This document shows, in pieces, positions 1-24,123 of a DNA stretch of 64,000 nt. The stretch comes from Gammaproteobacteria bacterium (lineage in GTDB: Bacteria > Pseudomonadota > Gammaproteobacteria > Eutrophobiales > Eutrophobiaceae). The notes under the pieces are model-generated. The model was not told the origin of the DNA. It ran no database searches and worked only from the letters and a program-made list of their open reading frames with translations. Numbering within the stretch: the first letter of the stretch is position 1; each line of letters begins with the position of its first letter. A program made the position numbers and the translations under genes. The stretch covers positions 2,624,001 through 2,688,000 of the forward strand of contig OZ220696.1 of the NCBI GenBank assembly GCA_965116495.1, read 5' to 3'.

Positions 1-295
1 ATACAATGTCAGATGTACAAGCCAAACCATTATTTAAATTTTTACTCAGTTGTTCCGAAATACGTCTTGGCATCTCAAGACGCAGGTTTTCCGGTTTTAT
101 CCTGCCCAGGTCCAATTCAAGTTTATCAATTTGATACTCCACGTCAGAACCGGCCAGCTTTGAGAAGTGTTCATCCAGTAATTGTTCGATCTGTCTTCGA
201 TAAATATTAATAACGTCATGTTCCAACTGTTTGGCTTGCGCTCCTGAATGAAAATGCAAACTGAAAGTCAGCTTCTTGATAATGTGCTTTTGCAT
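1..295 (-). CDS. eCIS tape measure protein (Afp14-like), N-terminal part; runs off window
   Basis: Not in ORF track. Manual translation from ATG at 295: MQKHIIKKLTFSLHF...YQIDKLELDLGRI. The HII...IDxLELDLG pattern is typical of CIS tape measure N-termini; follows the Afp12-like gene. Confidence 0.8.
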   Translation of the reverse strand, partial: MQKHIIKKLTFSLHFHSGAQAKQLEHDVINIYRRQIEQLLDEHFSKLAGSDVEYQIDKLELDLGRIKPENLRLEMPRRISEQLSKNLNNGLACTSDIV

Positions 296-325
296 TTTGT
301 TCCTGTGGTTAATCTTGTTCCCAAT

Positions 326-3154
326 CTATAGACTCGCATCCCCCCCTGCGCCTGGCGTATCATCCTGGAGAGGTTTTTCAAGAGTGTTCTCTTGACTGGG
401 ACTCTCCCAAACAGCAACATTTTCATCAATAGCCTGAGGAGCTTCTATGGCACTATGTTGAACCAGCCATCCGAGTAATTTACTCGCTTTTAATGTGGTA
501 TCGATTTTTTGGCTGTTGGATTGCGGGGCCGCTTTAGCAGTCAGCCAAGCCTGGTAATCAACCTCGAATTGCTGCAAAACCGCATCTTCAAACCAGAACA
601 GGCATGGAGTGATATGGGCTGGCGTTTCTTTTTTGATTACCTCTGCTACCAGGCCACGAAACTGTTGTCCTCCGGCGCTGTCCTTGAAGCGCCCGATTGA
701 TCCCGGAAAAATAAAGCTTACCTGGCAAGAATATGGATCGGCGTGTACAGGATAACGATACCAACCGGTATCCGGACTATCCGTTGTGAATGCAGCTTGA
801 AACGGCACATCAATCTCAAATCCAGTCTGTTGTATATTGAATGCCTTATGCATACCGTTTAATTCGGAGGCGTCAGCGCCGGTGACGATGACTGCATCTC
901 CTTCTCCCAGCCCACGCAGCTGTGGTACGGTAAAGTACGTAGTATGATGAGTATCGTCAAGGTTACGCGTGCCCTGTTTGATTTGGTCAATTTCGTTCAG
1001 GAAGGAAATAACCTGATCACGCATTTGTACTTCCGACACCCAGTTGCCTGTTTCCAGTACCTGAGGGTCGGATGGTATTACATAGTCATCTGAAATATGA
1101 AAGGTGTGGGCATCAACAACCTGGACAGCATAGTTTGACACCTGGTAATTACCATGGGTGGTTTGCGTGAAGTTAACCACGTCATTATCTTTTAATCCAT
1201 GTTCCTCAGTGCCCTTGCATAATATTTCACCCGGGCCAGCAGCACCAAAGGTGATACGACCTTGCGGCAAATCCGGGCGCAACAAGATATGGTCAACCAG
1301 GTGAAATCCTTCTGCTGCCTGGTCAGAGGGATTTTTTGAAGATGCTAACGACCGGTGACTAACGTCCTGGATATCCAGTAGCCGGCTGATACGCTTTTTC
1401 AAACCCGCAACATCATCAGTACCAGCGCTATTGACATCCGTATAATCGAATCCTTTGGTGCGGTTCCGGCTCAAATCAGCATAATCCTGCAGAAACCGTT
1501 GCTTCGCGGGGATGACTTTAACAGCCGTTGAAATCCGCCCTGTTAAGTTGCCGTTATCTCCAGTAAGTGGATATAACGTAGCGGCTGATGTGAAGTCCTG
1601 TCCATGACGCGCTAACAGGTGATTGAGAACCCGGTTCATTCGGTCGGTGTCAATATCAGGCTCGGTCACTGTTGAAGCCAGCTTGGATGAGTAACCAGAA
1701 CCATACCCCGCAATGATGTCCTCAACCCCAGCCACGTCTGAGGATAACTCAGTGGTAAAATATGTGGGTGATGGTGATTCTGCTTCGGCAATACCTCTGT
1801 CCGGTCGAACTGCAAATAATTCTCTGGTATGAGCCAGTTGCACCAGGTAATTGAGCAGCAACTGGTCAAACACCATGAGATAAGCTTGTAGCTGTTTTGC
1901 CTGGGCTTGACGCAGTTCACTCGCCGAATCGGATAAACCATGTCTTCCTACTCCGTAATTGCCGGGCAATTCGTTTTGCACGGAAACAAAATCTGTCAGG
2001 CTCCTGTACCTTCCTGCAGGGGGACTTAAATCCTGAGATATAATCGGATCTATTACGGTTTTTCTTTCCCGAGCCTGGTAAGCTTCTACCTTCCTGATAA
2101 CAATGTCTTTGTTGGGCAACACCGTCGCCGTACCCTCATGGGTGGAAAAAGTTACATCATTATCGTCGAAAAATTGTACAAGCGGCTTCAATACCGGTTT
2201 GGTATTGGCCGGGTCACTGATTTTTAATATCCAGTCTACGGGTGATTGCCGGCCTTGAGAAAGGCGCACCTTCTTAACCGCAGCGATACCGTCAATATCC
2301 AGTAACAAGGTTATGATGTCAGCGGTGTGGAGTTCCGTCCCGCGTTGGAATCTCAATAATTCATCATCATCCAAAAAGCCATGATCCAATACAGGTCCCT
2401 TAAAAATATCCTCAACCCTGTGGCCTGACGCCAGTCTTTCATCCAGCGTATAAAATTCAGGCGTAGGTGACAAATAATGATTTAAAGCAATGTAGACATC
2501 AGCCAAAATTTCATTAACGTCTGCATCATGATGGATTTCAATACCTGCCTTTATGGTAATTTCATCGTTGACAAGAACGCGAACCTCCGAAAAATCTTCG
2601 CCCACGTTACGAAATTGATGAAGCCGTTTCTTTACCCGCTCAATTACGGTATCCCCTTGCTCACTGCCGTCCAACTCGAGTAGTACCCGGTATAATCCGT
2701 TCAACGTACGAAGATGATCAGTTTCTGCGGTAGTAACAGGAAAGCTGAGTGATGCGGTAGCAGGATCATAGGCTACTGGAATCTCACAGGATTCGGCCTT
2801 TTCCAGCCATGCGTTCTTTACCCCGTTGATATCGATCAACAGTTTACGGTAGTCGATTGCGGTCTGTGGATTGACAGGCAGGATTTCTCCGGCGGAAAAG
2901 AATTGTTTGGCGGTAGCGTGACTGTCCGGGTTCTTAGCCAACAGGTCCTGCATATCAAACCCGAGGCGATAACTCAGGTCCGTTATGGCATAACAAAGGC
3001 TTTCCAACAAGGTTATTCCGGGGTCCGTTACATTATGGTCGGTCCAGACTTGTCCCGCTAACCTGGTGATAAGTTGTTGTCCTTCATTACGCAACCGTGT
3101 GTAATCCATCCCGGGTTCGAGCGGATCGTTGGTGATTGTTATTGGGTCTGACAT
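326..3154 (-). CDS. eCIS baseplate protein (Afp12-like)
   Basis: WTDHNVTDPGITLLE, QAKQLQAYLMVFDQLL, EGFHLVDHILLRP, DPYSCQVSFIFP and ETPAHI motifs; context. Confidence 0.88.
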   Translation of the reverse strand: MSDPITITNDPLEPGMDYTRLRNEGQQLITRLAGQVWTDHNVTDPGITLLESLCYAITDLSYRLGFDMQDLLAKNPDSHATAKQFFSAGEILPVNPQTAIDYRKLLIDINGVKNAWLEKAESCEIPVAYDPATASLSFPVTTAETDHLRTLNGLYRVLLELDGSEQGDTVIERVKKRLHQFRNVGEDFSEVRVLVNDEITIKAGIEIHHDADVNEILADVYIALNHYLSPTPEFYTLDERLASGHRVEDIFKGPVLDHGFLDDDELLRFQRGTELHTADIITLLLDIDGIAAVKKVRLSQGRQSPVDWILKISDPANTKPVLKPLVQFFDDNDVTFSTHEGTATVLPNKDIVIRKVEAYQARERKTVIDPIISQDLSPPAGRYRSLTDFVSVQNELPGNYGVGRHGLSDSASELRQAQAKQLQAYLMVFDQLLLNYLVQLAHTRELFAVRPDRGIAEAESPSPTYFTTELSSDVAGVEDIIAGYGSGYSSKLASTVTEPDIDTDRMNRVLNHLLARHGQDFTSAATLYPLTGDNGNLTGRISTAVKVIPAKQRFLQDYADLSRNRTKGFDYTDVNSAGTDDVAGLKKRISRLLDIQDVSHRSLASSKNPSDQAAEGFHLVDHILLRPDLPQGRITFGAAGPGEILCKGTEEHGLKDNDVVNFTQTTHGNYQVSNYAVQVVDAHTFHISDDYVIPSDPQVLETGNWVSEVQMRDQVISFLNEIDQIKQGTRNLDDTHHTTYFTVPQLRGLGEGDAVIVTGADASELNGMHKAFNIQQTGFEIDVPFQAAFTTDSPDTGWYRYPVHADPYSCQVSFIFPGSIGRFKDSAGGQQFRGLVAEVIKKETPAHITPCLFWFEDAVLQQFEVDYQAWLTAKAAPQSNSQKIDTTLKASKLLGWLVQHSAIEAPQAIDENVAVWESPSQENTLEKPLQDDTPGAGGDASL

Positions 3155-3211
3155 ATTTGGTTTTTACCCCGGTACATTAGGAAACCCATATCGGTTTTGG
3201 GCTCTCTTTAC

Positions 3212-3478
3212 TTATTTATCTTCGAATATCTGCTCATCCGGTGAAACCGGAATACGAACTTCGGCTGTTTCCTCGACTAAATCGCTCGGCGTCTGCTGGT
3301 CAGCTTGAAATGAGATCTCTTTGAGTACCATAATGGCCCCCTGAATTCGAAAAAGTGTCTCTCTCAATTCCATCCTTTCTCGTTCCATCCTTATCAACTT
3401 GGCATTGCCTTGTTCAAACTCCTGATTCAGTTCTGCAAGTCGTTTATTTATTTGTTCAGGCATAAGTCGATCAATCAA
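3212..3478 (-). CDS. small coiled-coil protein associated with eCIS fibre gene
   Basis: 88 aa heptad pattern ending LRETLFRIQGAIMVLKEI; directly downstream of the fibre gene. Confidence 0.6.
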   Translation of the reverse strand: MIDRLMPEQINKRLAELNQEFEQGNAKLIRMERERMELRETLFRIQGAIMVLKEISFQADQQTPSDLVEETAEVRIPVSPDEQIFEDK

Positions 3479-3504
3479 TATATGGGGAAAACAGCTGACT
3501 GACG

Positions 3505-4383
3505 CTATTGATATTGGAGCGCAAATGTATAGAAAACACCATTTGTTTCATCAACTTCATACCTTTTTACCAGCAGTCCTACTACAACCTTATTTTCAGG
3601 TACCTCAATAGCATACTCTCTAGGGTTTTCGCCTTGGTGATCACCCTCGAACTCTGTTTTATCTATCTCCCCAGCAAGTGACAGACTCCCTGCTGTAATA
3701 CTTCCGGAGACGGTAAGATTTCCATCGACCTGGGCTTCGCTTGTAACGCGTAGACTACCTGCTACGTGAAGTGTATCGGTTTGATCGGCATCACTACCAA
3801 TCGAGACATTGCCGCTATCATGGATCATCAACCCATCTGCGCCGCCGGCATTGCACAGCATCAAGCCACCACTGTCTCGCGCGCGGACTTCATCAGTTGC
3901 CACATGTTGGGCACCTCCAATGGTCAGAGTGCCATCTACAGTTGTATCGCCCATTGCATGCAGTGTATCGGTTATACTCAAGTTGCCTCGCGTTGACAGA
4001 TTTCCCCCTGTCTCTATATTGCCGTCAACCTTCAGACTATTTGGCCCCGGGTCAGTAGTTTCAGTATTACCGATATATACACCGCCTTTGACTGCCAGTT
4101 GTGCTGTCGGATTGGTAAAACCGGCTCCTATTCCAACATTTCCGTGTACAAATAATCCGTTGCCCGGCGCGCTATCGTTATTCGGTGATACGGTGACACT
4201 CCCTTTGACAGACAACCTTGACGGCGGGTTGCTATGGCCCAAACCCAGGTTGCCACCCTCATCAAATATGCCGTTATGCGCCAGGTTGAGACTTGAATCA
4301 ATCAGGTCAGCAAACTGTTCCTGCGTCGGTCTGGCGCCTGTCTTAAAATAGCCCTTTAATGTTGTTCTGTTTTGTTGAGACAT
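3505..4383 (-). CDS. eCIS tail fibre (Afp13-like), short
   Basis: N-terminus RTTLKGYFKTGARPTQEQFADLIDS is the typical eCIS fibre anchor; GNVGIG/LxVxG shaft repeats follow. Confidence 0.85.
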   Translation of the reverse strand: MSQQNRTTLKGYFKTGARPTQEQFADLIDSSLNLAHNGIFDEGGNLGLGHSNPPSRLSVKGSVTVSPNNDSAPGNGLFVHGNVGIGAGFTNPTAQLAVKGGVYIGNTETTDPGPNSLKVDGNIETGGNLSTRGNLSITDTLHAMGDTTVDGTLTIGGAQHVATDEVRARDSGGLMLCNAGGADGLMIHDSGNVSIGSDADQTDTLHVAGSLRVTSEAQVDGNLTVSGSITAGSLSLAGEIDKTEFEGDHQGENPREYAIEVPENKVVVGLLVKRYEVDETNGVFYTFALQYQ

Positions 4384-4489: not shown

Positions 4490-7400
4490 TCAGGGAACGA
4501 TGAAATCCACGTCCACTGCCATATAGCCAATCCCGCTGAACTGTATGGCTTCAAATTCATCCGTAACCACGTCAATAAAATGGTTTGCTGAAGAAATAAG
4601 AATCGAATCGGGGAAACGGGTTTCAACTACATCCTGGTCCAGTGGAGATAGCTGCTGCCTGCCAACGGAACCCTCGCTATCCCGGTTGATAAGAACGTGA
4701 TCGATCAATGTCACATTACCGACAAAATCTACATAGGACAGATTTGTAATAAAGCGGATCAATGATGACCGGTGAAGGGTGCCCCCGAATGTGACGTCTG
4801 CCTGGTTATTATAGGCCCATGGAGACAGATAGTTGATTATATCCTGATTTAATTGTCTGATATAAAACCCCTCACTTCCTTTTTGTTTGAATTTTAACGT
4901 TACCCGGTACCTGATTTCTTCATAACGTGGATTAACCACATCAACATCAACAAACGGGGAAACCCTGTCGTGCAAATAACCTGCAATTCGCCTGCGTAAT
5001 TTTTGTGAAACCTTCGGCCGCAAGGGGAAAACCGGTGTCTGGCCGGCGAGGTTTGGGACAACGACCAGTTTTACCTTCGCAGCTCCCGGATCATTTTCCT
5101 GCGCGGTCTGATTCAGGCATTTTACTTTACAGATATCAGGGAATTGTTCCAATACCAAACGCTCATAATCCCACATAGTGATTGCACGATCTTTATGCCG
5201 GAGCCTTTCACTGACTCGTCTTAAAAACTGCGCATAATCTTCCTGCCCTTTACCTCCAAAAGAGCTATAAGGCTGATTGACTGTATCGATAGCCGAGACC
5301 GGTGTTACCAGTTTTGTAATGCTGTTCGCCGGCAACGTCTCATTTAAATGTTCCGACGCCGGCGTCTGCAGAAGATGTGTCGCACTTACCGCCTGGGGGA
5401 TAATTGCGATTGCTTCAGGAAAGGCATTGACATTGTCCGGCACCCGTGCTCCAAACCAGTGAAAACCTTTTGGCATTAAGTTACTCGAGGAGGTCGCAGG
5501 AGGATGCGACTCGGTTGCATCAAGTGATGATGGAGGATGAAAGCGAATAATGCCCGTATTCAACATCCCGTTGGTACTATCAGACACGAATTCTTCGTCG
5601 TTGAACTTTATCCAGTTATCGTTACTCAGGTAATTCCAGCTCACCTCAGGTGGTTCAAGATCAGGGTTTTCATTTCCTTCATCCATTTGAAAAAGTAGTG
5701 AGAGTTCCTGTTTATCCTGTAGATCCTGTATGCCGATATACAGGTGGCCATTTTCACTGTATTGAGGTAACAGAAAATACCCCGCAGGATCACCGCGCTG
5801 GTCAGTCAATAAATTCGTTTTCAGCAGGTCCACCTGACCAAACGGATGTATTTGCAAGACTTGTATTGGAACGCCTGGTTGGCCTGCTTTGGTAAAATCA
5901 ACCGTACTGGTGCAGGAGTAATTTACGGACACGTGCCTGAGCTGTGGAATGTATGGCTGGTTAATCTGTTCCTGTGCTCCGAGATTTTGCGGCGCCACCA
6001 GATAGGCGTCTTGCAAGAAAGTGGAATTCGCGCCGGTCAACTCCAGTTTAAAATATCGATCCCAATCGAACGGATCATCCGACTCCGTACTTGCCAAATC
6101 CATATCATAATAGCCGTCAGAAAGGGTGGCGAAATTATACGAGATACTACTGGTTGAATTAAGAGTAGCTTCCGGCGTCTCAGAGTTAAATAACTTTTCA
6201 GGTTCAATAGAGCTGAACATTCGACTATCAAATACTTTCAACTCTACTTCAAAATCATCATCAGCCACCTCAATAATCTCACCATTGATGTTTTTATAAC
6301 CCTGGTAGTGTCCCGTTTCGGAACTGAAACTTCCCGGTAGATTTATCCACTCGAGATGAAACGTGATCTCTTTCAAGCGCTTTTGGCTGATTTCATCATT
6401 AGCTATATAAAACCCGGCCAGGTGATGCGGATTGTGACCAAAAGGCGCAAATGTGCTTTTTGTATTTAGGACGTGATGGTCGTTTCGGACTGCCAGGTTT
6501 TGTACGCCTGTACCAATTCCGTCACCCACGCTGACATCCAGAGTCAACTGTTGCAGTTGTAGCTCTTGAAGCTTCGTATAATACAGGTTGTTTTGAGTAC
6601 TACCGTCCTCAATGATATCTTTTACCGACAGTCTTATTACCGGATGTGGCGACGTAAGGGGCTGAACCGGGCTGAAAGTTGATGTATCGACAACAGGCGC
6701 AAGCGTGGCAGGAGCAGATTCTTTCAACGTAATCTTCAACGTCAGTTTCTGTCCTGAGACAGAGAAGTCAGTCTCGATATCTTCACGTTCGGCGCCAAAC
6801 CATGGCAGGTCTGCTCCGCCGGTAAAATCTACCCTTAATCCCCCAGTCAGCGCATTACTTGTCTCTGCATTCAATCGATTTTTAAACGTGAAATGCAAGT
6901 TGATAATCCGTTTACCCTCTTTTAACAAAAGCAAAGACGAACTGACGGCAAAACCAAGGCGGAGGGATTTTGTATCGACTCTGGCGTCGGCAAAACTCTG
7001 ACTGGTCTCACCGAACGCTGAGAAACTATCAGGGAGATGAATCTTGTCGCGGGCAAAGACTGCCCTTGGCGCTAAACGTTGTACCTGAATACTGTTTAAT
7101 GAAGGAGCATAGCCCTCTTTGGCGCTTTGCGCTCGTTCCACGATTTCATAAACACGCTGCCAGGCCGGATCATTGAGGTTTGTGACACGTTGATGGGTAT
7201 CCATCATATATCGGAAATCATCGGCGCTCATGTACAATTGCTTGCTCACATACGCTTGCGCGTCGTCATACGCGCCATCACCGGGCGAAGAAGTCTGAAG
7301 CAACCCATTCACTGTATCCAGCGTTTGTCTGCTATCAGCCTGTATCACTTGGACAAATGGGGGCAATTGATTGGCTTCTCCAGCGCCAAAGACATACTCA

Positions 7401-8536: not shown

Positions 8537-8652
8537 TTTATTACCTTCACTTGTTATTTACCAAAAACAATTGGTTAATCAACCATCCGGCCACGAAACC
8601 GAATTCCGACAGAAGCAAGTATGATTGTAATACTCAGAAGGGGAGAGTTACT

Positions 8653-9072
8653 TCAGGTTACTGCATTTGCCTCATTGAGGTGAAACGGATAAACCAGGTT
8701 AAACCGGCTATTGGTGGTTTTGATCGTATATTCAATATTGATGTTCAGCAGGCCTGTGTCATTTTGATCCTGGAAAACATTGACATTGACCAGATTGACT
8801 CTCGGCTCGTATAACAAAATCGCATCAGTGACGCTGTTCCGGATCTTGGCAATCGTCCTTTGATCAATTGGTTCAAACAATAACCGGGCTAACCCGCAGC
8901 CGTATTCCGGCTGCATTAAACGTTCACCGATGTTTGTGGTGAGCAAGGCCTTCAGGCTTTGGGAAATATTTTCAGGACCTGACGCCAGCGCGGTTATCGC
9001 AGAAGCATCACCCTTGCTGAACTCCGGCGGGAATTGCCAACCGATACCCGAGAATTTATTTTCAGTTGTCAT
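8653..9072 (-). CDS. baseplate wedge gp25/GPW family (Afp9-like)
   Basis: GIGWQFPP, GERLMQPEYGCGL, YEPRV, NLVYPF motifs. Confidence 0.92.
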   Translation of the reverse strand: MTTENKFSGIGWQFPPEFSKGDASAITALASGPENISQSLKALLTTNIGERLMQPEYGCGLARLLFEPIDQRTIAKIRNSVTDAILLYEPRVNLVNVNVFQDQNDTGLLNINIEYTIKTTNSRFNLVYPFHLNEANAVT

Positions 9073-9084
9073 ATGTATTAACTA

Positions 9085-10902: not shown

Positions 10903-10907
10903 ACTGC

Positions 10908-11828: not shown

Positions 11829-11830
11829 AC

Positions 11831-12925: not shown

Positions 12926-12953
12926 AAAAACACAGGCGCTTCCAGGAAGCGCC
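12926..12953 (-). terminator. possible internal terminator/hairpin before tube gene
   Basis: GGCGCTTCC-t-GGAAGCGCC followed by TGTGTTTTT on minus strand. Confidence 0.45.
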
Positions 12954-13077
12954 CATCCAACAACAGTGTGATGTTAAATTAATCGGTTTCTGACAGGCAG
13001 TGACGAACTGCCTGAACCAATTCATGATCAGTGATGAATACAGCTTACGCAGAATTATTTTCCCCGGGCTTTGCTAT

Positions 13078-15438: not shown

Positions 15439-17525
15439 CCCAAGTTTACCAATCTAAAAAATAAATCGTTATATGTCAATGGGTTAGATTGACATAATTC
15501 CGCTTATGGCACTACATTCGCGCCATGTTGCGGACGCTGTACTCAGACGATCTCTTTCTGCGTACCGCCGGGTGGTCCACGAATTCCCAAGGCGTCCAGG
15601 ATGGCCTGTTGCGGCGGTTCCGGACGGGTGGCCTTGCGCACGTGCACGGTACGTCCGTCTTTGCGCCGGACCGTGGCGGTCACCCGCTGACGGGCGCCGA
15701 GGATGCGCCGCAGCGTGGTCCAACTTGCGTTGCGGCAGGATTCATCGCCGTGCGCGGCCAGACGACGGCGGACCACCTGGACCAGTTGGTAGGCGATGAC
15801 GGTGATGAACAAGTGGCCCTCGGCGCGCCGGGGACTCTGGTGATAGATGGGGCGCAATCCCAGCTCGGATTTCAAGGCGCGGAACACTGCTTCGATGTCG
15901 GTGAGCAGGGTGTAGGTCTGCCACAGCCGCGCCTCATCCCAGTCGGTGAGGTTGCTGCGCAGGCAATAGATGCCGGGGTGGGTGAGCATCGAGCCGGTGA
16001 CCGGCTGGCGCTGCCAGCGTACGGCCACGGCCCGTTGGCCCTTGGCATCGGTGTCGACCTCGATGGTATAGTGCTGGCCGATGCCGTGGCTGCGGGCTTT
16101 CAAGCGTCCGATACGTTCCCGGACGTAGCCTGGCTGCTTGCGCGTACGCGGCCGGGACAGGCCCTCGTGCAGCGCGCTGAGGCCCTGCTCAAAGCGCGCC
16201 ATGAAGCGTTCGGCGATGGCGCGCTCTTTCTCGGCCCGCGCCGCCGAGTAACAGTACAGGCGCACCTCACCGGCCTTGGCATCGGCCACCTGCTCCAGTT
16301 GGACCGTCTCGCCCCCACGGGTACGATGGGCCAGGGCGGCGTCCACGTCGAACCGGCGCTGTTGTTCCCGGCTCACCACGATGTAACGGTAGTCGTTATC
16401 CTTGAGCCAGGTGACCTGCGCCTCGGTGGCGATGCCCCGGTCGAGAATGACCAAGGCCCCCGGCGGGGTCTTGAGCGCCTCCAGCATCCCGGCCAGGGTG
16501 GTCTCCTCGCGCACGTTGCCGGCAAACACCCGTGAACGGCGCACGAAGCCGCTCGCATCGAGCACCAGCCCCAGGGTGAGCAGCTTGCAGTCGCTGCGTT
16601 TCTCTTTCGAATGGCCGCGCTGCGCCAGCGGCTGCCCGTGGGCCTCGCCCTCGTAGTAGGTGTTGGTCAGGTCATACAGGGTGACCGTCGGCGCCAGGTC
16701 AAACAAGTCCATGGCCTGCGCGAACAGGTGTGTCTCAATGACCGCACGGTGTTTGAGCAGCGCATCGGAAGCCCGGTACAACTGCATGGCGCCCATGCGT
16801 TCGAAGTTCACGTCCAGCAACTCGCCCAGGGCACTGCGCTCGCATAACCAGGCATGGGTGGCCCGCTCCGAGGCCGGGCACGCCAGCCGGCCCACGATGG
16901 AGCCGATGGTGGCGGCGCGCAGGGATGCATTGACGCCCTGTGCCGCGAGTAACTCGTCCAGCCCCACCTGTGCCAGGGCCCACAACCCCACCTGCTCCAC
17001 GCCCACGCTGCGCGGGCGGGTCAAGGCCAGCGAGTCCAGATCGACTGCCATCCACGCCGGCGCCGTTCCCGTCTCGTCCGGTCGAGACCGGGCCAGCAGT
17101 TGGGCGCTAATCTGTTGTGCCGCACTCTCCACGCCGGCGGGCAGGCTCGCCAGCAGCGACGTCTGGCCCTGGCGCAACGCCTCAATACGTTGGCACAGGG
17201 TCGGCCAGTGTTGTTTGTCGATAGCAAACTCGCTGCCGAGGTTCAGCAGGGTGCGTTGGCGCACCTTGGTGCCCGCGCGCTCACTGTGCACCAGGCGGTG
17301 GGAGTAATAGGCCTGGCCGTCGGTACGGCGGGTGAGGGTACGGCGGATGAACATAGGGGGAGAGGATACCGCTCTACCACACCGATGTCAATATAAATAT
17401 TCATATTATGGCACTACAATGGCCAGACAACCCGTCACTCACCAAAAATCAATGCGTTACGATGACGAACCCGGCAGAAAATAGCAACATCCAACTAAAT
17501 GCCAGTGAATCTTGGTAAACTTGGG
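15439..17525 (-). mobile_element. IS1634-family insertion sequence
   Basis: Perfect 14-bp terminal IRs CCCAAGTTTACCAA (15439-15452) / TTGGTAAACTTGGG (17512-17525); CTAA duplicated at 15435-15438 and 17526-17529; visibly GC-richer than flanks. Confidence 0.9.
15543..17354 (-). CDS. IS1634-family DDE transposase
   Basis: YDLTNTYYEG, GHSKEKRSD, ILDRGI, IEAVFRALKSELGLRPIYH. Confidence 0.9.
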   Translation of the reverse strand: MFIRRTLTRRTDGQAYYSHRLVHSERAGTKVRQRTLLNLGSEFAIDKQHWPTLCQRIEALRQGQTSLLASLPAGVESAAQQISAQLLARSRPDETGTAPAWMAVDLDSLALTRPRSVGVEQVGLWALAQVGLDELLAAQGVNASLRAATIGSIVGRLACPASERATHAWLCERSALGELLDVNFERMGAMQLYRASDALLKHRAVIETHLFAQAMDLFDLAPTVTLYDLTNTYYEGEAHGQPLAQRGHSKEKRSDCKLLTLGLVLDASGFVRRSRVFAGNVREETTLAGMLEALKTPPGALVILDRGIATEAQVTWLKDNDYRYIVVSREQQRRFDVDAALAHRTRGGETVQLEQVADAKAGEVRLYCYSAARAEKERAIAERFMARFEQGLSALHEGLSRPRTRKQPGYVRERIGRLKARSHGIGQHYTIEVDTDAKGQRAVAVRWQRQPVTGSMLTHPGIYCLRSNLTDWDEARLWQTYTLLTDIEAVFRALKSELGLRPIYHQSPRRAEGHLFITVIAYQLVQVVRRRLAAHGDESCRNASWTTLRRILGARQRVTATVRRKDGRTVHVRKATRPEPPQQAILDALGIRGPPGGTQKEIV

Positions 17526-18370
17526 CTAAGTTACCGCTTAGCCCAGCGCCGGAAACTGTTACTGAACTGTCCGTATAACGATAGCGCAGTGTTGTCTTCA
17601 AGCAGGGATAATAGGCCGCCCCGTAATTCAAATTGTTAATTCCGACACTATTACTTCTGAAATTCCCGTCATCATTTTTTGGAATCTTACTTCCTGCTGG
17701 TTTTTGATAAACGTCCATCAGCGCAAACCGATCCTGTAATGCAGCACAATGCGCCAAGGCGTGATCGCAAACCAATTTATAATCACCGTATGCATCTTCG
17801 AGAATTTCCGCAGTCGTTTCACTACCCTTAAGGGATGCTGGCTCAACTACCAGCCCCACGGCATCGACAGGGACGATCAGAGTTGGTCCATCTTCAGCCT
17901 TTAGTTTATCGATACCAGCGTTAATGGCTGCTGCTGTTTTGTCACTTGCCGTGGTTGTTCCGCCGTTGCTGCCTACGGATACGATGTAACAATCACCGCC
18001 GCCATTAGCGCAGAAAAGTTGCAGGCTGTGATACATTTGATACTTCAGAGCAGGAGAGTCAACCGTATAAGTAGGAGGGGTACTCTGCGCATTCACGCTA
18101 ACATTAAATTCTGTTTTCTCCGCGAAGCCAAACAGGCTTTCATACTCGCGCATGGAACGGATCCGGGTCGGCACATTGGCCAAATCATTTCCATCAGCGT
18201 CTACAGCTATATCGGTATAGCCGATAAAGGCGGGCACGGCAGTATCGGCTGTGACGACTGATGGGGGCAAAACGGATTTTTCCTGAATATATACGTCAGG
18301 TGTTTTAAAAGTCATTGTAGAGTCCTCATGTTGAACAAAATAAAGAAATGTGTAGTCGTATGTACGTTTA

Positions 18371-19762
18371 CTACGCCTCCTGCAATTTATGAGTAAAGGT
18401 GAAGACCACAAATTCTGCCGGACGCACCGCTGCCGCACCGACTGTAACGTTCAGGCGGCCCTCCAGAATATCCTGCTCATCCATCGTCTCACCCAAGCCT
18501 ACCCGGACAAAGAAAGCTTCAGCCGGGCTCGCTCCCGACAAGCCCCCATCCTGCCAGAGCTTGGTCAGGTAACTTTCCACCTGGGTCCGTAATTTGGTCC
18601 AGGTAATGGCATTGTTCGGTTCAAACACGGCATAGGAAGTAGCTCGTTTGATGTCGCTCTCCATCTGGATAAACAACCGCCTGACCGGAATATAACGCCA
18701 TTCGTTACTGTTGCCGGCAAGGGTGCGGGCGCCCCATACCAATGTGCCTTTGCCATTGAAGGCGCGAATCGCATTGATCGATTTACCGGATGTTGCATCG
18801 ACATTCAGGGTGGCCTGTACATCGTTGTCCAGTTTAACGACAGGAGCAGTTACAGCGTTCAGACTAAGGTTGGCCGGCGCCTTCCAAACTCCGCGCTCAT
18901 TGTCTGTCGTAACTATCGCGCCTGCTAGCGCTGCGCTGGGAGGAAGCGTTACTCTTTGTCTGTCAAGTAAATCTTTGACTGCGCGATAACGAGCTGGCTT
19001 GTAATTTTCATTTTTACTGTCGTCGTTATTTGTCGGAGTATCGAGAACACTCAGGTCAATATCTGCAGGTTTTGGTCCTTTACCGTTATAAATGGTAACT
19101 TTTACTGCATTTGTGCCGGAATCAACATAATGATAAGGAAAGTTGGTGTCGAGATTAGGATAATACGCGGCGCCGTAATTTAAGTAATTTGAACCAATCG
19201 CCGTTCTGAACGTTTCGGGATCACTACCATCCATGTCAATGATGGCGAAACGGTCCTGCGTCTTGCTACATTGAGTGAGCATGTCCTGAACATAGGCATG
19301 ATAAGATCCTGTCTTGGCTGCATCTCCGGGCAACAACAGCGTAGGCTCATCTTCTTTTTCCAATAACTTCAAGCCGGCTTTTAATTTTATGTATGCCGGA
19401 ATTTTAGTTTGGTATGAACCAACGGAAACTATATAACAAGCGCCCCCGCCATTCGCAAAATAAAGTTGCATGGAATGATACATAAGATGGGTCAATCCTG
19501 GATTCTGCTTAATACTTATAACTTCTGTATCTGGATTTATCTCTACTTTAAATTTGGTTTCTACTGCCTGACCAAACTTGTTTTCATACTCGCGCATTGA
19601 AGTGATACGAGTCGGCACATTAGTCAGGCTCTTGCCATTACTGTCTTTGGCTTTCTCGGTATAACCTACAAAGGCAGGTATTGCCGAAGCGCCCGTCACG
19701 ACTGAAGGGGGAAGAGTGGATTTCTCTACCGTATAAACATGCGGAGTTTTATAGTCAACCAT
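18371..19762 (-). CDS. contractile tail sheath protein 1 (first structural gene)
   Basis: KTPHVY, PAFVGYT, FANGGG, GVWKAPAN, WGARTL, VRPAEF; GAGGA RBS. Confidence 0.95.
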   Translation of the reverse strand: MVDYKTPHVYTVEKSTLPPSVVTGASAIPAFVGYTEKAKDSNGKSLTNVPTRITSMREYENKFGQAVETKFKVEINPDTEVISIKQNPGLTHLMYHSMQLYFANGGGACYIVSVGSYQTKIPAYIKLKAGLKLLEKEDEPTLLLPGDAAKTGSYHAYVQDMLTQCSKTQDRFAIIDMDGSDPETFRTAIGSNYLNYGAAYYPNLDTNFPYHYVDSGTNAVKVTIYNGKGPKPADIDLSVLDTPTNNDDSKNENYKPARYRAVKDLLDRQRVTLPPSAALAGAIVTTDNERGVWKAPANLSLNAVTAPVVKLDNDVQATLNVDATSGKSINAIRAFNGKGTLVWGARTLAGNSNEWRYIPVRRLFIQMESDIKRATSYAVFEPNNAITWTKLRTQVESYLTKLWQDGGLSGASPAEAFFVRVGLGETMDEQDILEGRLNVTVGAAAVRPAEFVVFTFTHKLQEA

Positions 19763-19796
19763 TGTTAAATCCTCATAAATTTCAAATTAAAGGCAT

Positions 19797-19828
19797 AAAA
19801 AAACCCAGGCCGGGGTCCCGGCCTGGGT
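19797..19828 (-). terminator. strong intrinsic terminator immediately upstream of sheath 1
   Basis: ACCCAGGCCGGG/CCCGGCCTGGGT perfect IR followed by T7 on minus strand, 35 bp before the ATG. Confidence 0.88.
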
Positions 19829-19868
19829 CTGTCTTGGTCATGTGTCTTTGTGAAGACACACTCATGTC

Positions 19869-19924
19869 AGTATAGTGGTAATTTATAGTTTTCTATTTGA
19901 ACAGCGTCAAGAACTAATTTACCA
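19869..19924 (-). promoter_or_regulatory. promoter-like element P2 with upstream box and -10-like pause hexamer
   Basis: TGGTAAATT-agttc-TTGACG-N17-TATAAA-ttaccac-TATACT. Confidence 0.7.
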
Positions 19925-20258
19925 GGCATACAAGATTACTGTATTCCTTCACTTTCTACTGAAATTGTTGAATGCTCAATCCGGACGCATTATTACCAGC
20001 ATTAACGTAAGTTGTATCCTTTCGTTCAAACAATGCCCATATATTTTCTACCAGAACAAAAAGGACATATCCGTATCAAATAACAAATTTGACGGGGCAG
20101 GATATGCCCAACCAGATCGACTGTGATCCAATGCCCCTGGTCGGCGGAGCTATCCGGAAGGAGGTATGTGCAGGAGAAAGAACTCCGCCGTAAAACTGAC
20201 TCTACGCCATTGAAACAAAATCAGAACTGGTCTGGATCATGCAGATATTCATCAAACA

Positions 20259-20516
20259 TCACCTAATACGGCATGCTGTCCAGGCCTGATCCCATACTTG
20301 CAGTGCTTCCCGGCACTGCGCGTGAACCAGTACCGCATCCTGCCAGGCACGTAACAGGTCGCGCAGTGTCTCCCCATCATCAGGCATTGCCGGACATTCC
20401 ATTGCAGGTTTCCGGGGTGGACACACTTCCACCTTGGTTTCAACTACCGTACGAGGCAACCCTCCACACCCGGCCAGCAGCAGTAACATCACGGTAACCG
20501 ACAATCGATAGGGCAT
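20259..20516 (-). CDS. putative o-spanin (Rz1-like lipoprotein)
   Basis: Lipobox LLAGC, Pro/Cys-rich periplasmic part; overlaps the 3' end of the upstream gene. Confidence 0.75.
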   Translation of the reverse strand: MPYRLSVTVMLLLLAGCGGLPRTVVETKVEVCPPRKPAMECPAMPDDGETLRDLLRAWQDAVLVHAQCREALQVWDQAWTACRIR

Positions 20517-20836
20517 GTTACCCCCTCCCCCGCTGCCTCAATCTCATCAATGGTACGCTGCTCCTGCTCGGCCAGGTCTCGCACCTTTGCCACCCGCTGC
20601 TCGGCCTGTGTCTTCGCTTTCTCAAGAGCAGCTATTGCAATTCTTTGTCGTTTATTAGCCTTGAGGTTTTCTTCGTTAATGCGCATTAATTGCCGCATCT
20701 CTGCCTCCGCCCTCCCAGCGTATTTAATTGTGCGCACTATGTATGCAAGAGCGCCCGTGCAAACCATTGCCGTGATAGCGAGGGTCAGCAAGCCGGTGGC
20801 AGTGCGTCTTGCAAATGGGGCAGCGAAAAACATCAT
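20489..20836 (-). CDS. putative i-spanin (Rz-like)
   Basis: Single N-terminal TM helix, long coiled coil, C-terminal Cys; paired with the lipoprotein. Confidence 0.72.
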   Translation of the reverse strand: MMFFAAPFARRTATGLLTLAITAMVCTGALAYIVRTIKYAGRAEAEMRQLMRINEENLKANKRQRIAIAALEKAKTQAEQRVAKVRDLAEQEQRTIDEIEAAGEGVTCPIDCRLP

Positions 20837-21102
20837 ACTTCAGTGTGTCGCTTCCTGCTGATCTCGTCAATCGTGCCTCTGAGGTACGCCAGGTCCTCTC
20901 TCAGCTCTGAACGGCCGGCGGCGGTCTTGGCTTTTTCGCTGTCCATCCTCATATCCAATTCCTTCCAGGATTTATCCATCCTGGCGTCTATTCGGCTATC
21001 CATATCAATAATGTCCTGTTCTGTGTTCTCGACTTTTTCGACCAGTTCGGTCAATCGCCACATCCATACGAGTGTGTTGATTATTCGGCCGAAAGATTTC
21101 AT
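20833..21102 (-). CDS. hypothetical coiled-coil protein in lysis cassette
   Basis: 89 aa; ATGA overlaps with both neighbours. Confidence 0.6.
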   Translation of the reverse strand: MKSFGRIINTLVWMWRLTELVEKVENTEQDIIDMDSRIDARMDKSWKELDMRMDSEKAKTAAGRSELREDLAYLRGTIDEISRKRHTEV

Positions 21103-21431
21103 TTTTTGGCCTCCTCAAAGTACTTGACGTATTGGTTTACCCTGCGACCTTTCCAAAAATAAAAAACCCCGGTATCAGACCTGGTCAACCAGACCACATC
21201 CGGTAACGGGGCTTTTTTACGACAGATTTCTACCGGCGGTTTTCCCCATTTTCCCAGGTACTGGCCGCAGACAGCGTAACTTGCTGCCTGCGCTGGTGCG
21301 CAACCGACAAATGCGATCAGGAGTGGCACGGCGATGATCTTGTACCCTGCCAACAAGGGCATCTCACCGTCATAATTAACCACAAATAAATAAAAGAGAA
21401 GACATGTTGCAACAATTATTGCCAATGTCAC
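21099..21431 (-). CDS. hypothetical membrane/exported protein in lysis cassette
   Basis: Likely GTG start overlapping the endolysin stop (GTGA); two hydrophobic segments and a lipobox-like FVGC. Confidence 0.5.
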   Translation of the reverse strand: MTLAIIVATCLLFYLFVVNYDGEMPLLAGYKIIAVPLLIAFVGCAPAQAASYAVCGQYLGKWGKPPVEICRKKAPLPDVVWLTRSDTGVFYFWKGRRVNQYVKYFEEAKK

Positions 21432-21976
21432 TGCATTTTCCGGCGTACCATGGCGATTCGCCATACATACTGTATAGTCTCCCGACTGTAGTGACCGGTG
21501 ACCAGATACAGGTAAGGCGCTATACCGTCCCAACAGCGTTCTCCGCCGGACAGTTCCTGGGCTTTCAGGATATTGCCGTTCCCGGCATTGTAACCGGCCT
21601 GCCCCATTGTCCGTCGGCACTCTTGTGTCCTGTCAAATATCCAGAAATCCATCGACTGGGCCATGTAGCGAGCGCCCATGATGATGTTGTATCTGGCCTC
21701 GAAGACATTGCCATCCACCTGGCTCTGACGCTGCAGATCTGCCAGGGTTGTCGGCATGATCTGCATAACGCCTTGAGCGCCGACTGGTGAAACCGCAGTG
21801 GTCACCAGCGAGCTCTCGGCTATTCCCTGCGCTTTCAACCAGCACCAGTCCTGTTGTTCTGGCGGCCAGTAGTACATGACAGCAACTCGAAAGTGTTTAT
21901 CAAATGCCTGGGTATAACCGGGCGCGTGGCATTGAGCCGCGAACAGAGAAAGCATTAATACAGCGGCTGCGCTCAT
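21428..21976 (-). CDS. SLT-domain lytic transglycosylase (endolysin) with N-terminal hydrophobic signal
   Basis: AES catalytic Glu, AVSPVGAQGVMQIMPTT, YNAG, ETIQYV. Confidence 0.9.
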   Translation of the reverse strand: MSAAAVLMLSLFAAQCHAPGYTQAFDKHFRVAVMYYWPPEQQDWCWLKAQGIAESSLVTTAVSPVGAQGVMQIMPTTLADLQRQSQVDGNVFEARYNIIMGARYMAQSMDFWIFDRTQECRRTMGQAGYNAGNGNILKAQELSGGERCWDGIAPYLYLVTGHYSRETIQYVWRIAMVRRKMQ

Positions 21977-22425
21977 CCGAGAGGCGTTCCCATATTTGCT
22001 ATCAGGTAGAATATAGCTATGGCGACGCCGGCCGTGCAGATGGCGAATGCGATGGCCAGTTCGCCGTCACCTTGTTTTGTTGTTTTGCCTTCTCTCCATG
22101 CGTCTGCCATATCGTCAAGCTCATCAAGAAATGGAAATACCAGCTTGCGCACGGATTCGATACGTATGAGGACATATAACACTATCAAGCTGACAGCGAG
22201 ACCGGATAATCCCCATACCAACTGATTCAAAAGGTGGTTGACCTGCAAAATCCAGGTTTTGAAAAACCCGGTCGGATCGTAATATATGCCGGCGATAAGC
22301 GCTGCAATCAGCGCGAGTGACAGCAATGTGTATTTGCTCAGCAACCACTTGATGCTGTTAACTACAAATCGAAACACGGCTTCAAACCCTTTGCCGCAGG
22401 CAAGATATATGTTCTCTTCTTTCAT
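21973..22425 (-). CDS. putative holin (about 3 TM helices)
   Basis: Three hydrophobic segments, RKLVFPFLD loop; coupled by ATGA to the endolysin. Confidence 0.6.
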   Translation of the reverse strand: MKEENIYLACGKGFEAVFRFVVNSIKWLLSKYTLLSLALIAALIAGIYYDPTGFFKTWILQVNHLLNQLVWGLSGLAVSLIVLYVLIRIESVRKLVFPFLDELDDMADAWREGKTTKQGDGELAIAFAICTAGVAIAIFYLIANMGTPLG

Positions 22426-23163: not shown

Positions 23164-23541
23164 TTATGACCATTTCCCTAACAACCAGTACTTTGCCATT
23201 CTCAAGTATTCATGAAATGTGACACGGCTCATATTCAACTCGTCTGCCTTTTGCATCACACTGCCGGACTGCAAATAATATTTCATAACCACTTCTTTTA
23301 ATTTCACCGGCATCTCACAAATTGCTTGTTCGGTCTTTTCCGCTTCTTTATCGTCTGGTAACCTCGTCTGAAATCCCTGGTAGACATATGCCCCTTCCCG
23401 CCGCAATTTGTTCTCCCTGGTTTCAGTGGGGAACCCCAGTCCAAAATTGCGTCTGACCCTGGCCCAGCGAGCCCAATGGCTTAAACTTATTTCTATGAAG
23501 GCCGTGGGATCTACAGCTTTCGTTGACTGACGTTGTTTCAT
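23164..23541 (-). CDS. phage antitermination protein Q-like
   Basis: 125 aa; LSHWARW..GLGFP N-terminus and C-terminal HTH-like YYLQSGSVMQKADELNMSRVTFHEYLRMAKYWLLG; upstream of lysis genes. Confidence 0.75.
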   Translation of the reverse strand: MKQRQSTKAVDPTAFIEISLSHWARWARVRRNFGLGFPTETRENKLRREGAYVYQGFQTRLPDDKEAEKTEQAICEMPVKLKEVVMKYYLQSGSVMQKADELNMSRVTFHEYLRMAKYWLLGKWS

Positions 23542-23542: not shown

Positions 23543-23788
23543 TCAACACATCAGCCTTAAGTAACGTATTCCATCTAACTGAGCCTTCAGACTATTGAGT
23601 GTCTGTTTTGCGCGTTTTTGCTCCACTTCATCTAAATAGGGAAAATAAGCTTTAATCAACTCAATATCAAAACACCTCAGCTCATATATATCATTAATTG
23701 ATATATTCCTACTCGGGACTGATAAAGCCTCGCCCCGGAATAGTATTTTCATCTGTTCATTAAGAATGTGATTTACTTTTTTGTGCAT
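23543..23788 (-). CDS. hypothetical protein (81 aa) coupled to Q
   Basis: GGGAGA RBS; stop 1 bp before the Q start. Confidence 0.6.
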   Translation of the reverse strand: MHKKVNHILNEQMKILFRGEALSVPSRNISINDIYELRCFDIELIKAYFPYLDEVEQKRAKQTLNSLKAQLDGIRYLRLMC

Positions 23789-23844
23789 ATTTCATTCTCC
23801 CATCTTATTATTTATATAACTTTTATTAATTAAATGATTGCGCC

Positions 23845-23872
23845 AAAAAAAACCCGCAAATTCAGGTGCGGG
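23845..23872 (-). terminator. intrinsic terminator upstream of orf81-Q
   Basis: CCCGCA-N8-TGCGGG followed by T8 on minus strand. Confidence 0.75.
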
Positions 23873-23937
23873 ATTCCTACTAAATGAGGAAAAATTGTAA
23901 ATTTAATATTCTAAATAATTCGTTATCATAAATATTT

Positions 23938-23998
23938 ATTCTATCTCAACGGTAATTTATAAACTGTTGTTCAAATTACTGCAACTATGAATTTACCA
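23938..23998 (-). promoter_or_regulatory. promoter-like element P1
   Basis: TGGTAAATT-catag-TTGCAG-N17-TATAAA-ttaccgt-TGAGATAGAAT. Confidence 0.68.
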
Positions 23999-24067
23999 AG
24001 GCCTGGCCGGCAGGGGATATTTCTTTATTCAAACATGTACCATCGTCACGAGAAAGACAATTATTTC

Positions 24068-24123
24068 ATCGTATAGACATTTTATAGGTTATCGTCTGAA
24101 CAACTGCAAGTAAAAATTTACCA
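24068..24123 (-). promoter_or_regulatory. promoter-like element P0
   Basis: TGGTAAATT-tttac-TTGCAG-N17-TATAAA-atgtcta-TACGAT. Confidence 0.68.

What the first reader, a model, noticed from the sequence alone, without database searches (positions are those of the whole stretch)
1..24123. eCIS apparently run by a lambdoid-style late-gene circuit: Q antiterminator + phage lysis cassette + terminator-gated operons
Seen: one co-oriented block reading P0/P1 > terminator > orf81 > Q-like > DUF2730-like > holin-like > SLT endolysin > 2 unknown genes > spanin pair > P2 > terminator > sheath x3, tube x2, Afp6/7/8/9/11/13/12/14. No capsid, terminase, integrase or replication gene is visible. Known: Serratia Afp and Photorhabdus PVC expression depends on RfaH/NusG-type antiterminators. 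Q-type factors control lambdoid late genes, and related factors control P. aeruginosa AlpA lysis and Caulobacter GTA (GafZ). Inference: a domesticated prophage late module couples synthesis and lytic release of an injection particle. I do not know of a described Q-controlled eCIS, but cannot verify novelty without a search.
Basis: partly seen in the sequence, partly recalled or inferred. Interest (0 to 1): 0.92.

Follow-up and report, generated by a model that had tools for sequence, protein, structure and literature searches.

The report
Phage Q-type switch for injection machine
A bacterial protein-injection machine sits behind a phage-type read-through regulator gene and a repeated promoter that carries the pause signal such regulators load on, so one virus-derived switch likely turns on the machine, its scattered cargo genes and, in some lineages, the cell-bursting genes that would release it.

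Summary
Largely confirmed and extended. The 125-aa protein is a divergent Q21/AlpA-type factor (PHROG 79; 40 of 141 homologs hit PF06530; near full-length fold match to Q21, Z 7.7). Motif, Q-like gene and eCIS occur together in 4 of 23 genomes of the genus, and in relatives the motif also precedes orphan DUF4157 cargo genes. The lysis cassette is accessory: present in close relatives from five studies, missing in three congeners. Antiterminator plus lysis cassette plus eCIS is known (Afp/AnfA1); a Q21-type regulon is not described in the papers searched, though a published supplement lists an unremarked lambda-Q-family gene beside an Erwinia eCIS. The scan's earlier notes held no match. Function is untested.

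The parts
24068..24123 (-). P0: TGGTAAA (24123-24117), -35 TTGCAG (24109-24104), spacer with TTGTTCAGACGA, -10 TATAAA (24086-24081), pause-type hexamer TACGAT (24073-24068). Also the outer edge of the conserved module
   Evidence: contigs of related strains X10, X11, X13 stop aligning at 24124
23938..23998 (-). P1: TGGTAAA, -35 TTGCAG (23984-23979), -10 TATAAA (23961-23956); hexamer at gap 7 is TGAGAT (fails NANNNT; TAGAAT follows at gap 12). Orthologous P1 in three congeners has TAGAGT
23844..23872 (-). T1: intrinsic-terminator-like hairpin plus T8, between P0/P1 and orf81
   Evidence: -13.4 kcal/mol; hairpin of different sequence at the same place in 3 of 3 congeners
23543..23788 (-). orf81, no known family; always directly before Q (stop, 1 base, ATG); candidate co-activator (inferred)
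   Evidence: dN/dS 0.05-0.11 in 5 of 6 pairs, one saturated
23164..23541 (-). Q21/AlpA-type antiterminator candidate, 125 aa: N-terminal helix, flexible segment 32-64, sigma4-like helix-turn-helix
22584..23039 (-). orf151: N-terminal hydrophobic segment plus coiled coil; phrog_736 (unknown function) E 2e-6
21973..22425 (-). orf150: three hydrophobic segments, overlaps SLT start; holin by position and topology only
   Evidence: no family hit
21428..21976 (-). SLT-family endolysin, 41% identical to Vibrio phage endolysins that lie between holin and I-spanin
20833..21431 (-). two unknown genes: orf110 (21431-21099, two hydrophobic segments) and orf89 (21102-20833)
20259..20836 (-). overlapping spanin-like pair: Rz-like 20836-20489, Rz1-like lipoprotein 20516-20259 (LLAGC)
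   Evidence: (PF23793 E 3e-4, under cut-off)
19998..20053 (-). P2a: degenerate fourth copy (-35 TGGGCA, -10 TACAAC, pause-type AATGCT); better preserved in congeners, deleted in strain X13
19869..19924 (-). P2: TGGTAAA, -35 TTGACG (19910-19905), palindromic spacer CTGTTCAAATAG, -10 TATAAA (19887-19882), pause-type TATACT (19874-19869)
19795..19830 (-). T2: strong terminator-like hairpin plus T run, 78 nt after the -10 of P2 in all four genomes, with stem changes that keep pairing
18371..19762 (-). sheath 1 (closest solved: Anabaena All3325 7b5h, AlgoCIS 7adz; then Pvc3/Afp3)
14797..18315 (-). sheath 2, in two pieces (18315-17530 and 15435-14797) around the IS
   Evidence: intact 461-aa gene in 3 congeners; empty site in strain X10
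15436..17529 (-). IS1634-family element, transposase 17354-15543
11676..14697 (-). sheath 3, tube (Afp1-like), tube (Afp5-like), DUF5908 (Afp6-like)
4490..11669 (-). Afp7 (CIS_tube/LysM), Afp8 (VgrG-like), Afp9 (gp25), Afp11 (Baseplate_J)
1..4383 (-). putative fibre (292 aa), orf88, Afp12-like (942 aa) and the start of the Afp14-like gene, assigned by position; the operon continues outside the window with sheath 4, Afp15 ATPase, spike tip, two Pvc16, a terminator-like hairpin, two DUF4157 genes, a metallophosphoesterase and a GT4 glycosyltransferase gene

Best explanation
This is a complete eCIS gene set whose promoters carry a fixed-gap pause-type hexamer and are followed by terminator hairpins, and the adjacent Q21/AlpA-like protein likely loads on RNA polymerase paused there and would carry it through the terminators into the lysis, particle and cargo genes. 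Steps: (1) sigma70-type polymerase starts at P0/P1/P2 and normally stops at T1 and T2 (sequence shown, activity inferred). (2) It pauses at the NANNNT hexamer 7 nt behind the -10 box; Q binds the spacer element (consensus YTGTTYRAACAR, purine-purine-ACR half in about the position of the AlpA element) and forms the exit-channel ring (inferred from Q21/AlpA). (3) Because orf81-Q lie behind T1, the first Q molecules would make more Q: a positive feedback that would commit a few cells (inferred). (4) Q-loaded polymerase would read about 37 kb from P2 through a further hairpin into the cargo genes; in relatives orphan DUF4157 cargo genes have their own copies of the promoter (shown), so they likely fire together. 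(5) orf81 may be the partner activator that recognises TGGTARA, as GafY does for GafZ (weakest step). (6) In this clade a phage-type holin/SLT/spanin cassette sits in the Q unit and would lyse the producer; other lineages lack it.
For: Family: phrog_79 E 9e-6; 91 of 141 homologs hit phrog_79 and 40 of 141 PF06530; profile match to E. coli DLP12 QuuD, probability 93, E 3e-7 over 109 columns; ESM Atlas neighbours mostly viral, best named family PF06530 on 11% of members. Fold: Q21 (6jnx_P) Z 7.7, rmsd 5.8, 105 residues, model range 9-125; AlpA (7xyb_G) Z 5.9, 105 residues; sigma4 domains match mostly the C-terminal half; Q21 chains have the highest query TM-score of the listed Foldseek rows, 0.54-0.55. 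Pause element: not part of the search matrix, yet A at position 2 in 20 of 22 and T at position 6 in 22 of 22 sites; NANNNT at gap 7 in 27 of 30 sites, at most 3 of 30 at any other gap from 3 to 11, and in 9 of 9 further sites found near Pfam-defined cargo genes; background 306 of 5,358. NANNNT just behind the -10 box is the tested requirement of AlpA (PMC9371919) and BrrG (10.1101/2024.11.20.624540); a palindromic spacer element loads GafZ (PMC11150451). Terminators follow 17 of 22 sites. Co-occurrence: sheath, Q and the promoter pattern occur in the same 4 of 23 genomes of the genus. 11 of 14 PF13699 genes of the three relatives have a site upstream. Purifying selection on Q, dN/dS 0.05-0.08 in 5 of 6 pairs.
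Against: No experiment. The protein itself does not reach the PF06530 threshold; Foldseek gave no match with E <= 0.001, the Z of 7.7 is middling and tied with ECF sigma4 domains, and the would-be ring segment has pLDDT under 50. Window P1 lacks NANNNT at gap 7. The 8 distal promoters and 5 cargo-facing local ones have no terminator by my scan, so antitermination alone does not explain their control. T1 leader folding is not above shuffles. The four genomes and their sites are kin, so counts overstate independence; 2 of the 9 new sites score only 13.5-14 bits, the level of the best background hit. The lysis cassette is missing in 3 of 3 congeners. Sheath 2 is interrupted in this strain and tube 1 in G022, so these loci may not make particles.
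Confidence: 0.78

Rival explanations
1. The 125-aa protein is a sigma4-like initiation activator (alone or with orf81), not a processive antiterminator; the second hexamer is the real -10 box and the upstream elements are activator sites.
For: Top fold matches are sigma4 domains, Z 8.0-8.2; some homologs hit Sigma70_r4_2 (13 of 141); distal cargo promoters have no detectable terminator.
Against: The TTG-17-TATAAA geometry is conserved at all sites, and no -35-like box lies 17 nt before the second hexamer; strong terminators sit 78 nt behind P2 in all four genomes; Q21 itself superimposes on sigma4 with Z 6.4 (10.1101/651190); the N-terminal half aligns with Q proteins.
Confidence: 0.13
2. Q controls the particle and cargo genes, but the lysis cassette is a later passenger that is not needed, or not used, for release; the particle may act inside or stay attached to the producer.
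For: Cassette absent from three congeners, which keep everything else; closest solved sheaths are from Anabaena tCIS and AlgoCIS; some eCIS loci lack lysis genes (PMC10598620). Cassette G+C is 0.51 against 0.42 for orf81-Q and 0.47 for the eCIS.
Confidence: 0.25
3. Q plus lysis genes are a decayed prophage late region that happens to lie beside an eCIS.
For: Q and SLT relatives are mostly phage proteins; IS insertions and a defence-gene patch flank the block.
Against: Q keeps its place before the eCIS in genomes with different flanks and near-saturated synonymous sites; the same promoter precedes the sheath gene and distant cargo genes; no terminase or nearby integrase found.
Confidence: 0.03

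Closest known systems
Serratia entomophila Afp (pADAP) with AnfA1 and its upstream lysis cassette; Photorhabdus PVC with RfaH operator
   Same: Antiterminator gene, then holin/lysis genes, then the eCIS, all co-oriented (record NZ_CP082788; PMC6748792 and PMC12961389 passages).
   Different: AnfA1 is NusG/RfaH-type and uses an ops site; here the factor is Q21-type, no ops-like match lies in the promoter regions, and the sheath is closer to Anabaena/AlgoCIS than to Afp.
Pseudomonas aeruginosa AlpA (alpBCDE lysis and PA0807-0829)
   Same: Q21-like fold, binding element between -35 and -10, NANNNT pause, downstream terminator, prophage-derived lysis genes plus a second long operon (PMC7969949, PMC9371919 passages).
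   Different: AlpA is switched on by cleavage of the repressor AlpR; no repressor gene is seen here and Q lies behind its own terminator. The target is an injection machine with many dispersed cargo promoters.
Caulobacter GafY/GafZ and Bartonella BrrG (gene transfer agents)
   Same: Domesticated Q-like antiterminator controlling a phage-derived particle; GafZ has a palindromic spacer element and an upstream partner gene whose product activates about 18 further promoters (PMC11150451); BrrG needs a NANNNT element.
   Different: Those particles package DNA; this one is a headless protein injector. GafZ and BrrG each have one reported target, here the spacer and pause elements occur at all sites. 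orf81 shows no similarity to any family.
Lambdoid Q-pR'-tR' late cassette (phage 21 Q, DLP12 QuuD)
   Same: Q gene followed by lysis genes and tail genes; promoter, pause element, terminator (10.1101/651190; profile match).
   Different: In phages Q precedes pR' and there is one late promoter; here Q follows P0/P1 and T1, there are 4 local and up to several distal promoters, and no head, packaging or integration genes were found.
Erwinia oleae eCIS row in Geller et al. 2021, supplementary file 12
   Same: Glyco_hydro_19, DUF2514, Antiterm (PF03589), small ORF, then afp1: a lambda-Q-family gene with lysis-type genes directly before an eCIS.
   Different: Different Q family (PF03589, 1 hit; PF06530 has 0 of 22,287 Pfam hits in eCIS loci); not mentioned in the main text (0 hits for 'antitermin'); I could not fetch or check that locus.

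Membership tests
eCIS (Afp/PVC/AlgoCIS type) | Sheath, tube, VgrG-like spike, gp25, baseplate J | tested here: met
eCIS (Afp/PVC/AlgoCIS type) | Afp15 AAA ATPase, Afp16/Pvc16 cap, spike tip, DUF4157 genes | tested here: met
   (outside the window)
eCIS (Afp/PVC/AlgoCIS type) | No head, packaging or integration genes in the locus | tested here: met
   (one terminase family and tyrosine integrases searched)
eCIS (Afp/PVC/AlgoCIS type) | All structural genes intact | tested here: not met
   sheath 2 split by IS1634 in this strain; intact in G014 and G015
eCIS (Afp/PVC/AlgoCIS type) | Particles are made, released and inject | not testable with these tools
   needs microscopy and assays
Q21/AlpA-type processive antiterminators | Sequence membership in PF06530 at curated cut-off | tested here: not met
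   but 40 of 141 homologs match and AlpA itself has no sequence homology to 21Q
Q21/AlpA-type processive antiterminators | Profile-level homology to Q proteins | tested here: met
   phrog_79 E 9e-6; QuuD probability 93
Q21/AlpA-type processive antiterminators | Fold: N-terminal helix, ring-forming loops, sigma4-like HTH | tested here: inconclusive
   Q21 Z 7.7 over 105 residues, tied with sigma4 domains; ring segment pLDDT < 50
Q21/AlpA-type processive antiterminators | NANNNT pause element just behind the -10 box of target promoters | tested here: met
   27 of 30 and 9 of 9 sites at gap 7; 3 of 4 in the window
Q21/AlpA-type processive antiterminators | Conserved element between -35 and -10 | tested here: met
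   spacer columns conserved at 82-95%; binding itself untested; the 12-mer alone is not rare in the genome (110 exact matches)
Q21/AlpA-type processive antiterminators | Terminator between promoter and target genes | tested here: inconclusive
   17 of 22 local sites, 0 of 8 distal sites by my hairpin scan
Q21/AlpA-type processive antiterminators | Factor-dependent, processive read-through | not testable with these tools
   needs reporter or in vitro transcription
Phage holin-endolysin-spanin lysis cassette | Endolysin | tested here: met
Phage holin-endolysin-spanin lysis cassette | Overlapping inner/outer spanin pair | tested here: met
   weak family hits, overlap, one hydrophobic segment plus coiled coil, lipobox-like LLAGC
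Phage holin-endolysin-spanin lysis cassette | Holin | tested here: inconclusive
   orf150 has three hydrophobic segments but no family hit
RfaH/AnfA1-controlled eCIS (Afp, PVC) | Linked NusG-family gene and ops site before the first structural gene | tested here: not met
   no NusG domain among the locus genes; no ops-like match between P0 and sheath 1

The most novel reading that the evidence does not exclude
A phage Q21-type antiterminator, paired with an unknown 81-aa co-activator, has become the self-amplifying master switch of a genome-wide eCIS regulon: it gates its own gene, the particle operon and dispersed cargo genes through one promoter with a built-in pause, so the promoter signature predicts cargo proteins of unknown families; Q-family factors were recruited to eCIS loci at least twice (Q21-type here, lambda-type in Erwinia oleae).
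Probability: 0.5. Interest if true: 0.82.

Novelty: new variant of a known kind. Interest (0 to 1): 0.7.

Why it matters
How eCIS loci are switched on is unknown for most loci; the regulators on record are RfaH/AnfA1, GerE and BTAD proteins (PMC8213781 passages). A Q-type switch would add a new class, would give a simple cause for production by a small committed subpopulation (Q behind its own terminator), and offers a defined inducer and a short testable promoter. The promoter also marks orphan cargo genes, including families without DUF4157 (three genes of one unknown family and a 629-aa gene), which are otherwise hard to assign to an eCIS. About 40 natural promoter variants give a ready data set for the geometry of Q loading and sigma-dependent pausing.

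Tried and rejected
No loci with a Q relative were found in viral contigs or metagenome contigs; phage records gave only weak partial hits; so the donor phage and its own late promoter could not be examined. Sequence searches of PDB with A1 and A4 found no Q protein, only weak sigma4 hits. Rfam gave 0 matches at E <= 1 in 1-26000. Four plasmid eCIS upstream regions showed NusG-type genes (2 of 4) or no annotated regulator. A LexA-type reading of the palindrome was rejected: no SOS-box pattern (recalled motif) in the locus. orf151 and the 193-aa gene of the congeners are not detectably related (E 0.023). One hit of the promoter pattern, identical in G000, G015, G016 and G022, lacks the pause hexamer and was set aside as chance. 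No RNA holder was listed. The structure prediction of orf81 did not finish, and the ESM Atlas gave no usable hit. The scan's earlier findings held nothing relevant. Literature searches found no paper that describes Q-type control of an eCIS; one search returned 0 papers. Supplementary files 13-15 of PMC8213781 were not searched and file 12 is cut; subscription papers are not covered.

Full report
Observation. Pfam confirms sheath, two tubes, DUF5908, CIS_tube, VgrG OB-fold, gp25 and Baseplate_J. The window is C1:2,624,001-2,688,000 of a 4.34-Mb single-contig genome; relatives are titled Gammaproteobacteria MAGs. Beyond base 1 the operon goes on with an Afp14-like gene, a fourth sheath, the Afp15 ATPase, a spike tip, two Pvc16 genes, two DUF4157 genes, a metallophosphoesterase and a GT4 glycosyltransferase gene. 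The closest solved sheaths are Anabaena All3325 and AlgoCIS (E about 1e-105 to 1e-109), ahead of Pvc3 and Afp3. Another sample of the same organism has the IS at the same place; a related strain has the empty site. No tyrosine integrase lies within 600 kb and Terminase_6N was not found in 4 of 4 genomes.

The regulator. The 125-aa protein hits phrog_79, 'anti-termination protein Q-like', at E 9e-6 but not PF06530. A profile search returned 575 proteins at E <= 0.001; of 141 aligned sequences (window protein, 11 first hits, 129 picked from the 150 listed), 91 hit phrog_79, 40 PF06530 and 13 Sigma70_r4_2. The profile aligns with E. coli QuuD over 109 columns at probability 93. The model (pLDDT 73.7) has a long first helix, a poorly predicted segment at 32-64 and a sigma4-like C-terminal half. 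Q21 aligns over 105 residues from 9 to 125 (Z 7.7, rmsd 5.8) and AlpA over 105 (Z 5.9), while sigma4 domains score Z 8 mostly on the C-terminal half; Foldseek gave no E <= 0.001, with Q21 chains highest in query TM-score among listed rows. The fold result alone is inconclusive; family plus fold point to a divergent Q21-type protein. Q and orf81 are under purifying selection (dN/dS 0.05-0.11 where not saturated).

The promoter is the strongest evidence. Aligning intergenic DNA of the window with three congeners shows one repeated element: TGGTARA, 7 nt, a TTG-type -35, a 17-nt spacer with near-palindromic YTGTTYRAACAR, TATAAA. A matrix from 10 sites of the relatives ranks the four window copies first in the whole genome, 23.5-45.9 bits against 13.4 for the next. 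The matrix ended at the -10 box, yet 7 nt further on lies a second -10-like hexamer: A at position 2 in 20 of 22 and T at position 6 in 22 of 22 sites, against 306 of 5,358 for TAYAAW hexamers genome-wide and 5 of 44 for generic promoter-like sites. In 30 sites NANNNT occurs 27 times at gap 7 and at most 3 times at any other gap from 3 to 11. This is the sigma-dependent pause element that all Q proteins need and that was shown by mutation for AlpA (PMC9371919, passages and section 12) and BrrG (10.1101/2024.11.20.624540, passages and section 8). The AlpA element GGGACG lies between -35 and -10 (PMC7969949, passages); by my count the conserved purine-purine-ACR half of the spacer here sits within one base of that distance from the pause hexamer (inference). 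GafZ loads on a near-perfect palindrome in the spacer (PMC11150451, passages). Terminator-like hairpins follow 17 of 22 sites; T2 lies 78 nt behind the -10 of P2 in all four genomes with stem changes that keep pairing. Against: window P1 has TGAGAT at gap 7, the T1 leader is not above shuffles, and the sites are related by descent.

Distribution and regulon. Sheath, Q (4 of 126 genomes of the family) and the promoter pattern occur in the same 4 of 23 genomes of the genus; a fifth genome has only the one chance hit; the reversed pattern gives 0. This is probably one inheritance, not four events. In the relatives 8 copies lie far from the locus: 5 precede genes that resemble the N-terminal part of the DUF4157 cargo proteins (3 strongly, 2 weakly), 3 precede an unknown family, and 7 have NANNNT at gap 7. 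Starting from Pfam instead (14 PF13699 genes in three relatives), 11 have a site upstream, and all 9 newly found sites carry the hexamer at gap 7 (two score only 13.5-14 bits, several are orthologs of each other). None of the 8 distal leaders has a terminator by my scan, which suggests a second layer such as an activator at TGGTARA; orf81, fixed one base before Q in all four genomes and sharing contig lengths with Q homologs in three more records, is the candidate, by analogy with GafY. In G000 itself there are no distal sites; its cargo genes follow a hairpin at the end of the operon with no promoter copy of their own, which fits processive read-through.

The lysis cassette. The SLT protein is 41% identical to Vibrio phage endolysins lying between holin and I-spanin; the spanin pair has weak family hits and the right overlap; the holin call rests on three hydrophobic segments. 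In G014, G015 and G022 the whole cassette is replaced by one 193-aa gene, and these genomes have only the two long housekeeping SLT genes and no orf150 match. On the other side, single contigs at about 94-95% identity span Q and the cassette in runs X11 and X17, one contig in X13 bridges cassette and sheath 1, and X7 and X10 cover it in pieces: five studies besides the possible source. Homologs of orf81, Q (82%) and SLT (62%) share a longest-contig length of 26,212, probably one contig, which I could not read. So the cassette is a stable accessory module of one clade; gain or loss was not resolved.

Mechanism. Most likely, polymerase starts at these promoters, pauses at the second hexamer and stops at T1 or T2; Q loads at the pause and carries it through. 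Since orf81-Q lie behind T1, Q would promote its own synthesis, a feedback absent from lambdoid phages, where Q precedes pR' (10.1101/651190, passages), and suited to committing a few cells. Gene content, motifs and co-occurrence are shown; pausing, loading, read-through, feedback, the role of orf81, lysis and particle production are inferred. This strain's particle may be defective because of the IS; G022 has tube 1 interrupted by an 8.6-kb insert.

Comparison and novelty. Antiterminator, lysis cassette and eCIS in a row is the known Afp layout, with a NusG-type factor (PMC6748792 and PMC12961389, passages). Domesticated Q-like factors are known for a lysis pathway (AlpA) and gene transfer agents (GafZ, BrrG). 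eCIS regulators listed by Geller et al. are RfaH, GerE and BTAD (PMC8213781, passages); their Pfam table has 0 PF06530 and 1 PF03589 among 22,287 hits in eCIS loci, the latter an Erwinia oleae locus with GH19, DUF2514 and Antiterm genes before afp1 (supplement files 4 and 12), not discussed in the text. A review (PMC10598620, passages) calls regulation of many loci unclear. Eight searches (listings only, apart from the papers named) found no description of Q-type control of an eCIS. Q was not linked to the eCIS in 17 other gammaproteobacterial genomes, so the arrangement is lineage-specific. Verdict: a new variant of a known kind, with unusually clear cis-regulatory evidence and a dispersed cargo regulon; interest 0.70.

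Noticed in passing
window 20050-20200 (-): A conserved non-coding stretch before P2a folds into three hairpins in all four genomes (consensus -44.5 kcal/mol, z -2.3 in the window), with one-sided but no two-sided changes among 39 pairs; no Rfam match; deleted in strain X13.
   Followed up: partly
window 22452-22504: A 35-50 bp repeat between orf151 and orf150 has about 25 further copies in the genome; one X3 contig joins an IS1634 end to this site, and related strains differ here.
   Followed up: partly
window 25055-31317 (+): HEC-01A/HEC-01B candidate defence pair, the B gene split by a transposase gene (26371-27537), followed by a type I restriction subunit without neighbouring M and S genes.
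   Followed up: partly
window 43107-45760 (+): Two frames that match parts of the defence protein TmtA, apparently a broken gene.
   Followed up: no
L028:15120-15701 (G014) and orthologs: A 193-aa protein (coiled coil, one hydrophobic segment, coiled coil) replaces the lysis cassette in three congeners; no family hit; might be an unknown release factor.
   Followed up: partly
L028:10196-12085, L075, L079, L092: Genes without DUF4157 under the same promoter: a 629-aa gene behind its own terminator and a family with an ETGRP...FVESEAR.YW motif; candidate cargo of unknown kind.
   Followed up: partly
L025-L026 (G022:C1 about 1,292,000-1,301,000): Tube 1 of G022 is interrupted by an 8.6-kb insert; three different loci of this family show mobile-element damage or tandem promoter copies.
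   Followed up: no
L031:5514-7469 and 2663-5335: The metallophosphoesterase and GT4 glycosyltransferase genes at the operon end share an N-terminal stretch with each other, which may be a second loading signal.
   Followed up: no
window 9152-9280: The VgrG-like gene ends in short tandem repeats (TTKKTKLDTKESLDL), and its length differs from the congeners (605 against 591 aa).
   Followed up: no
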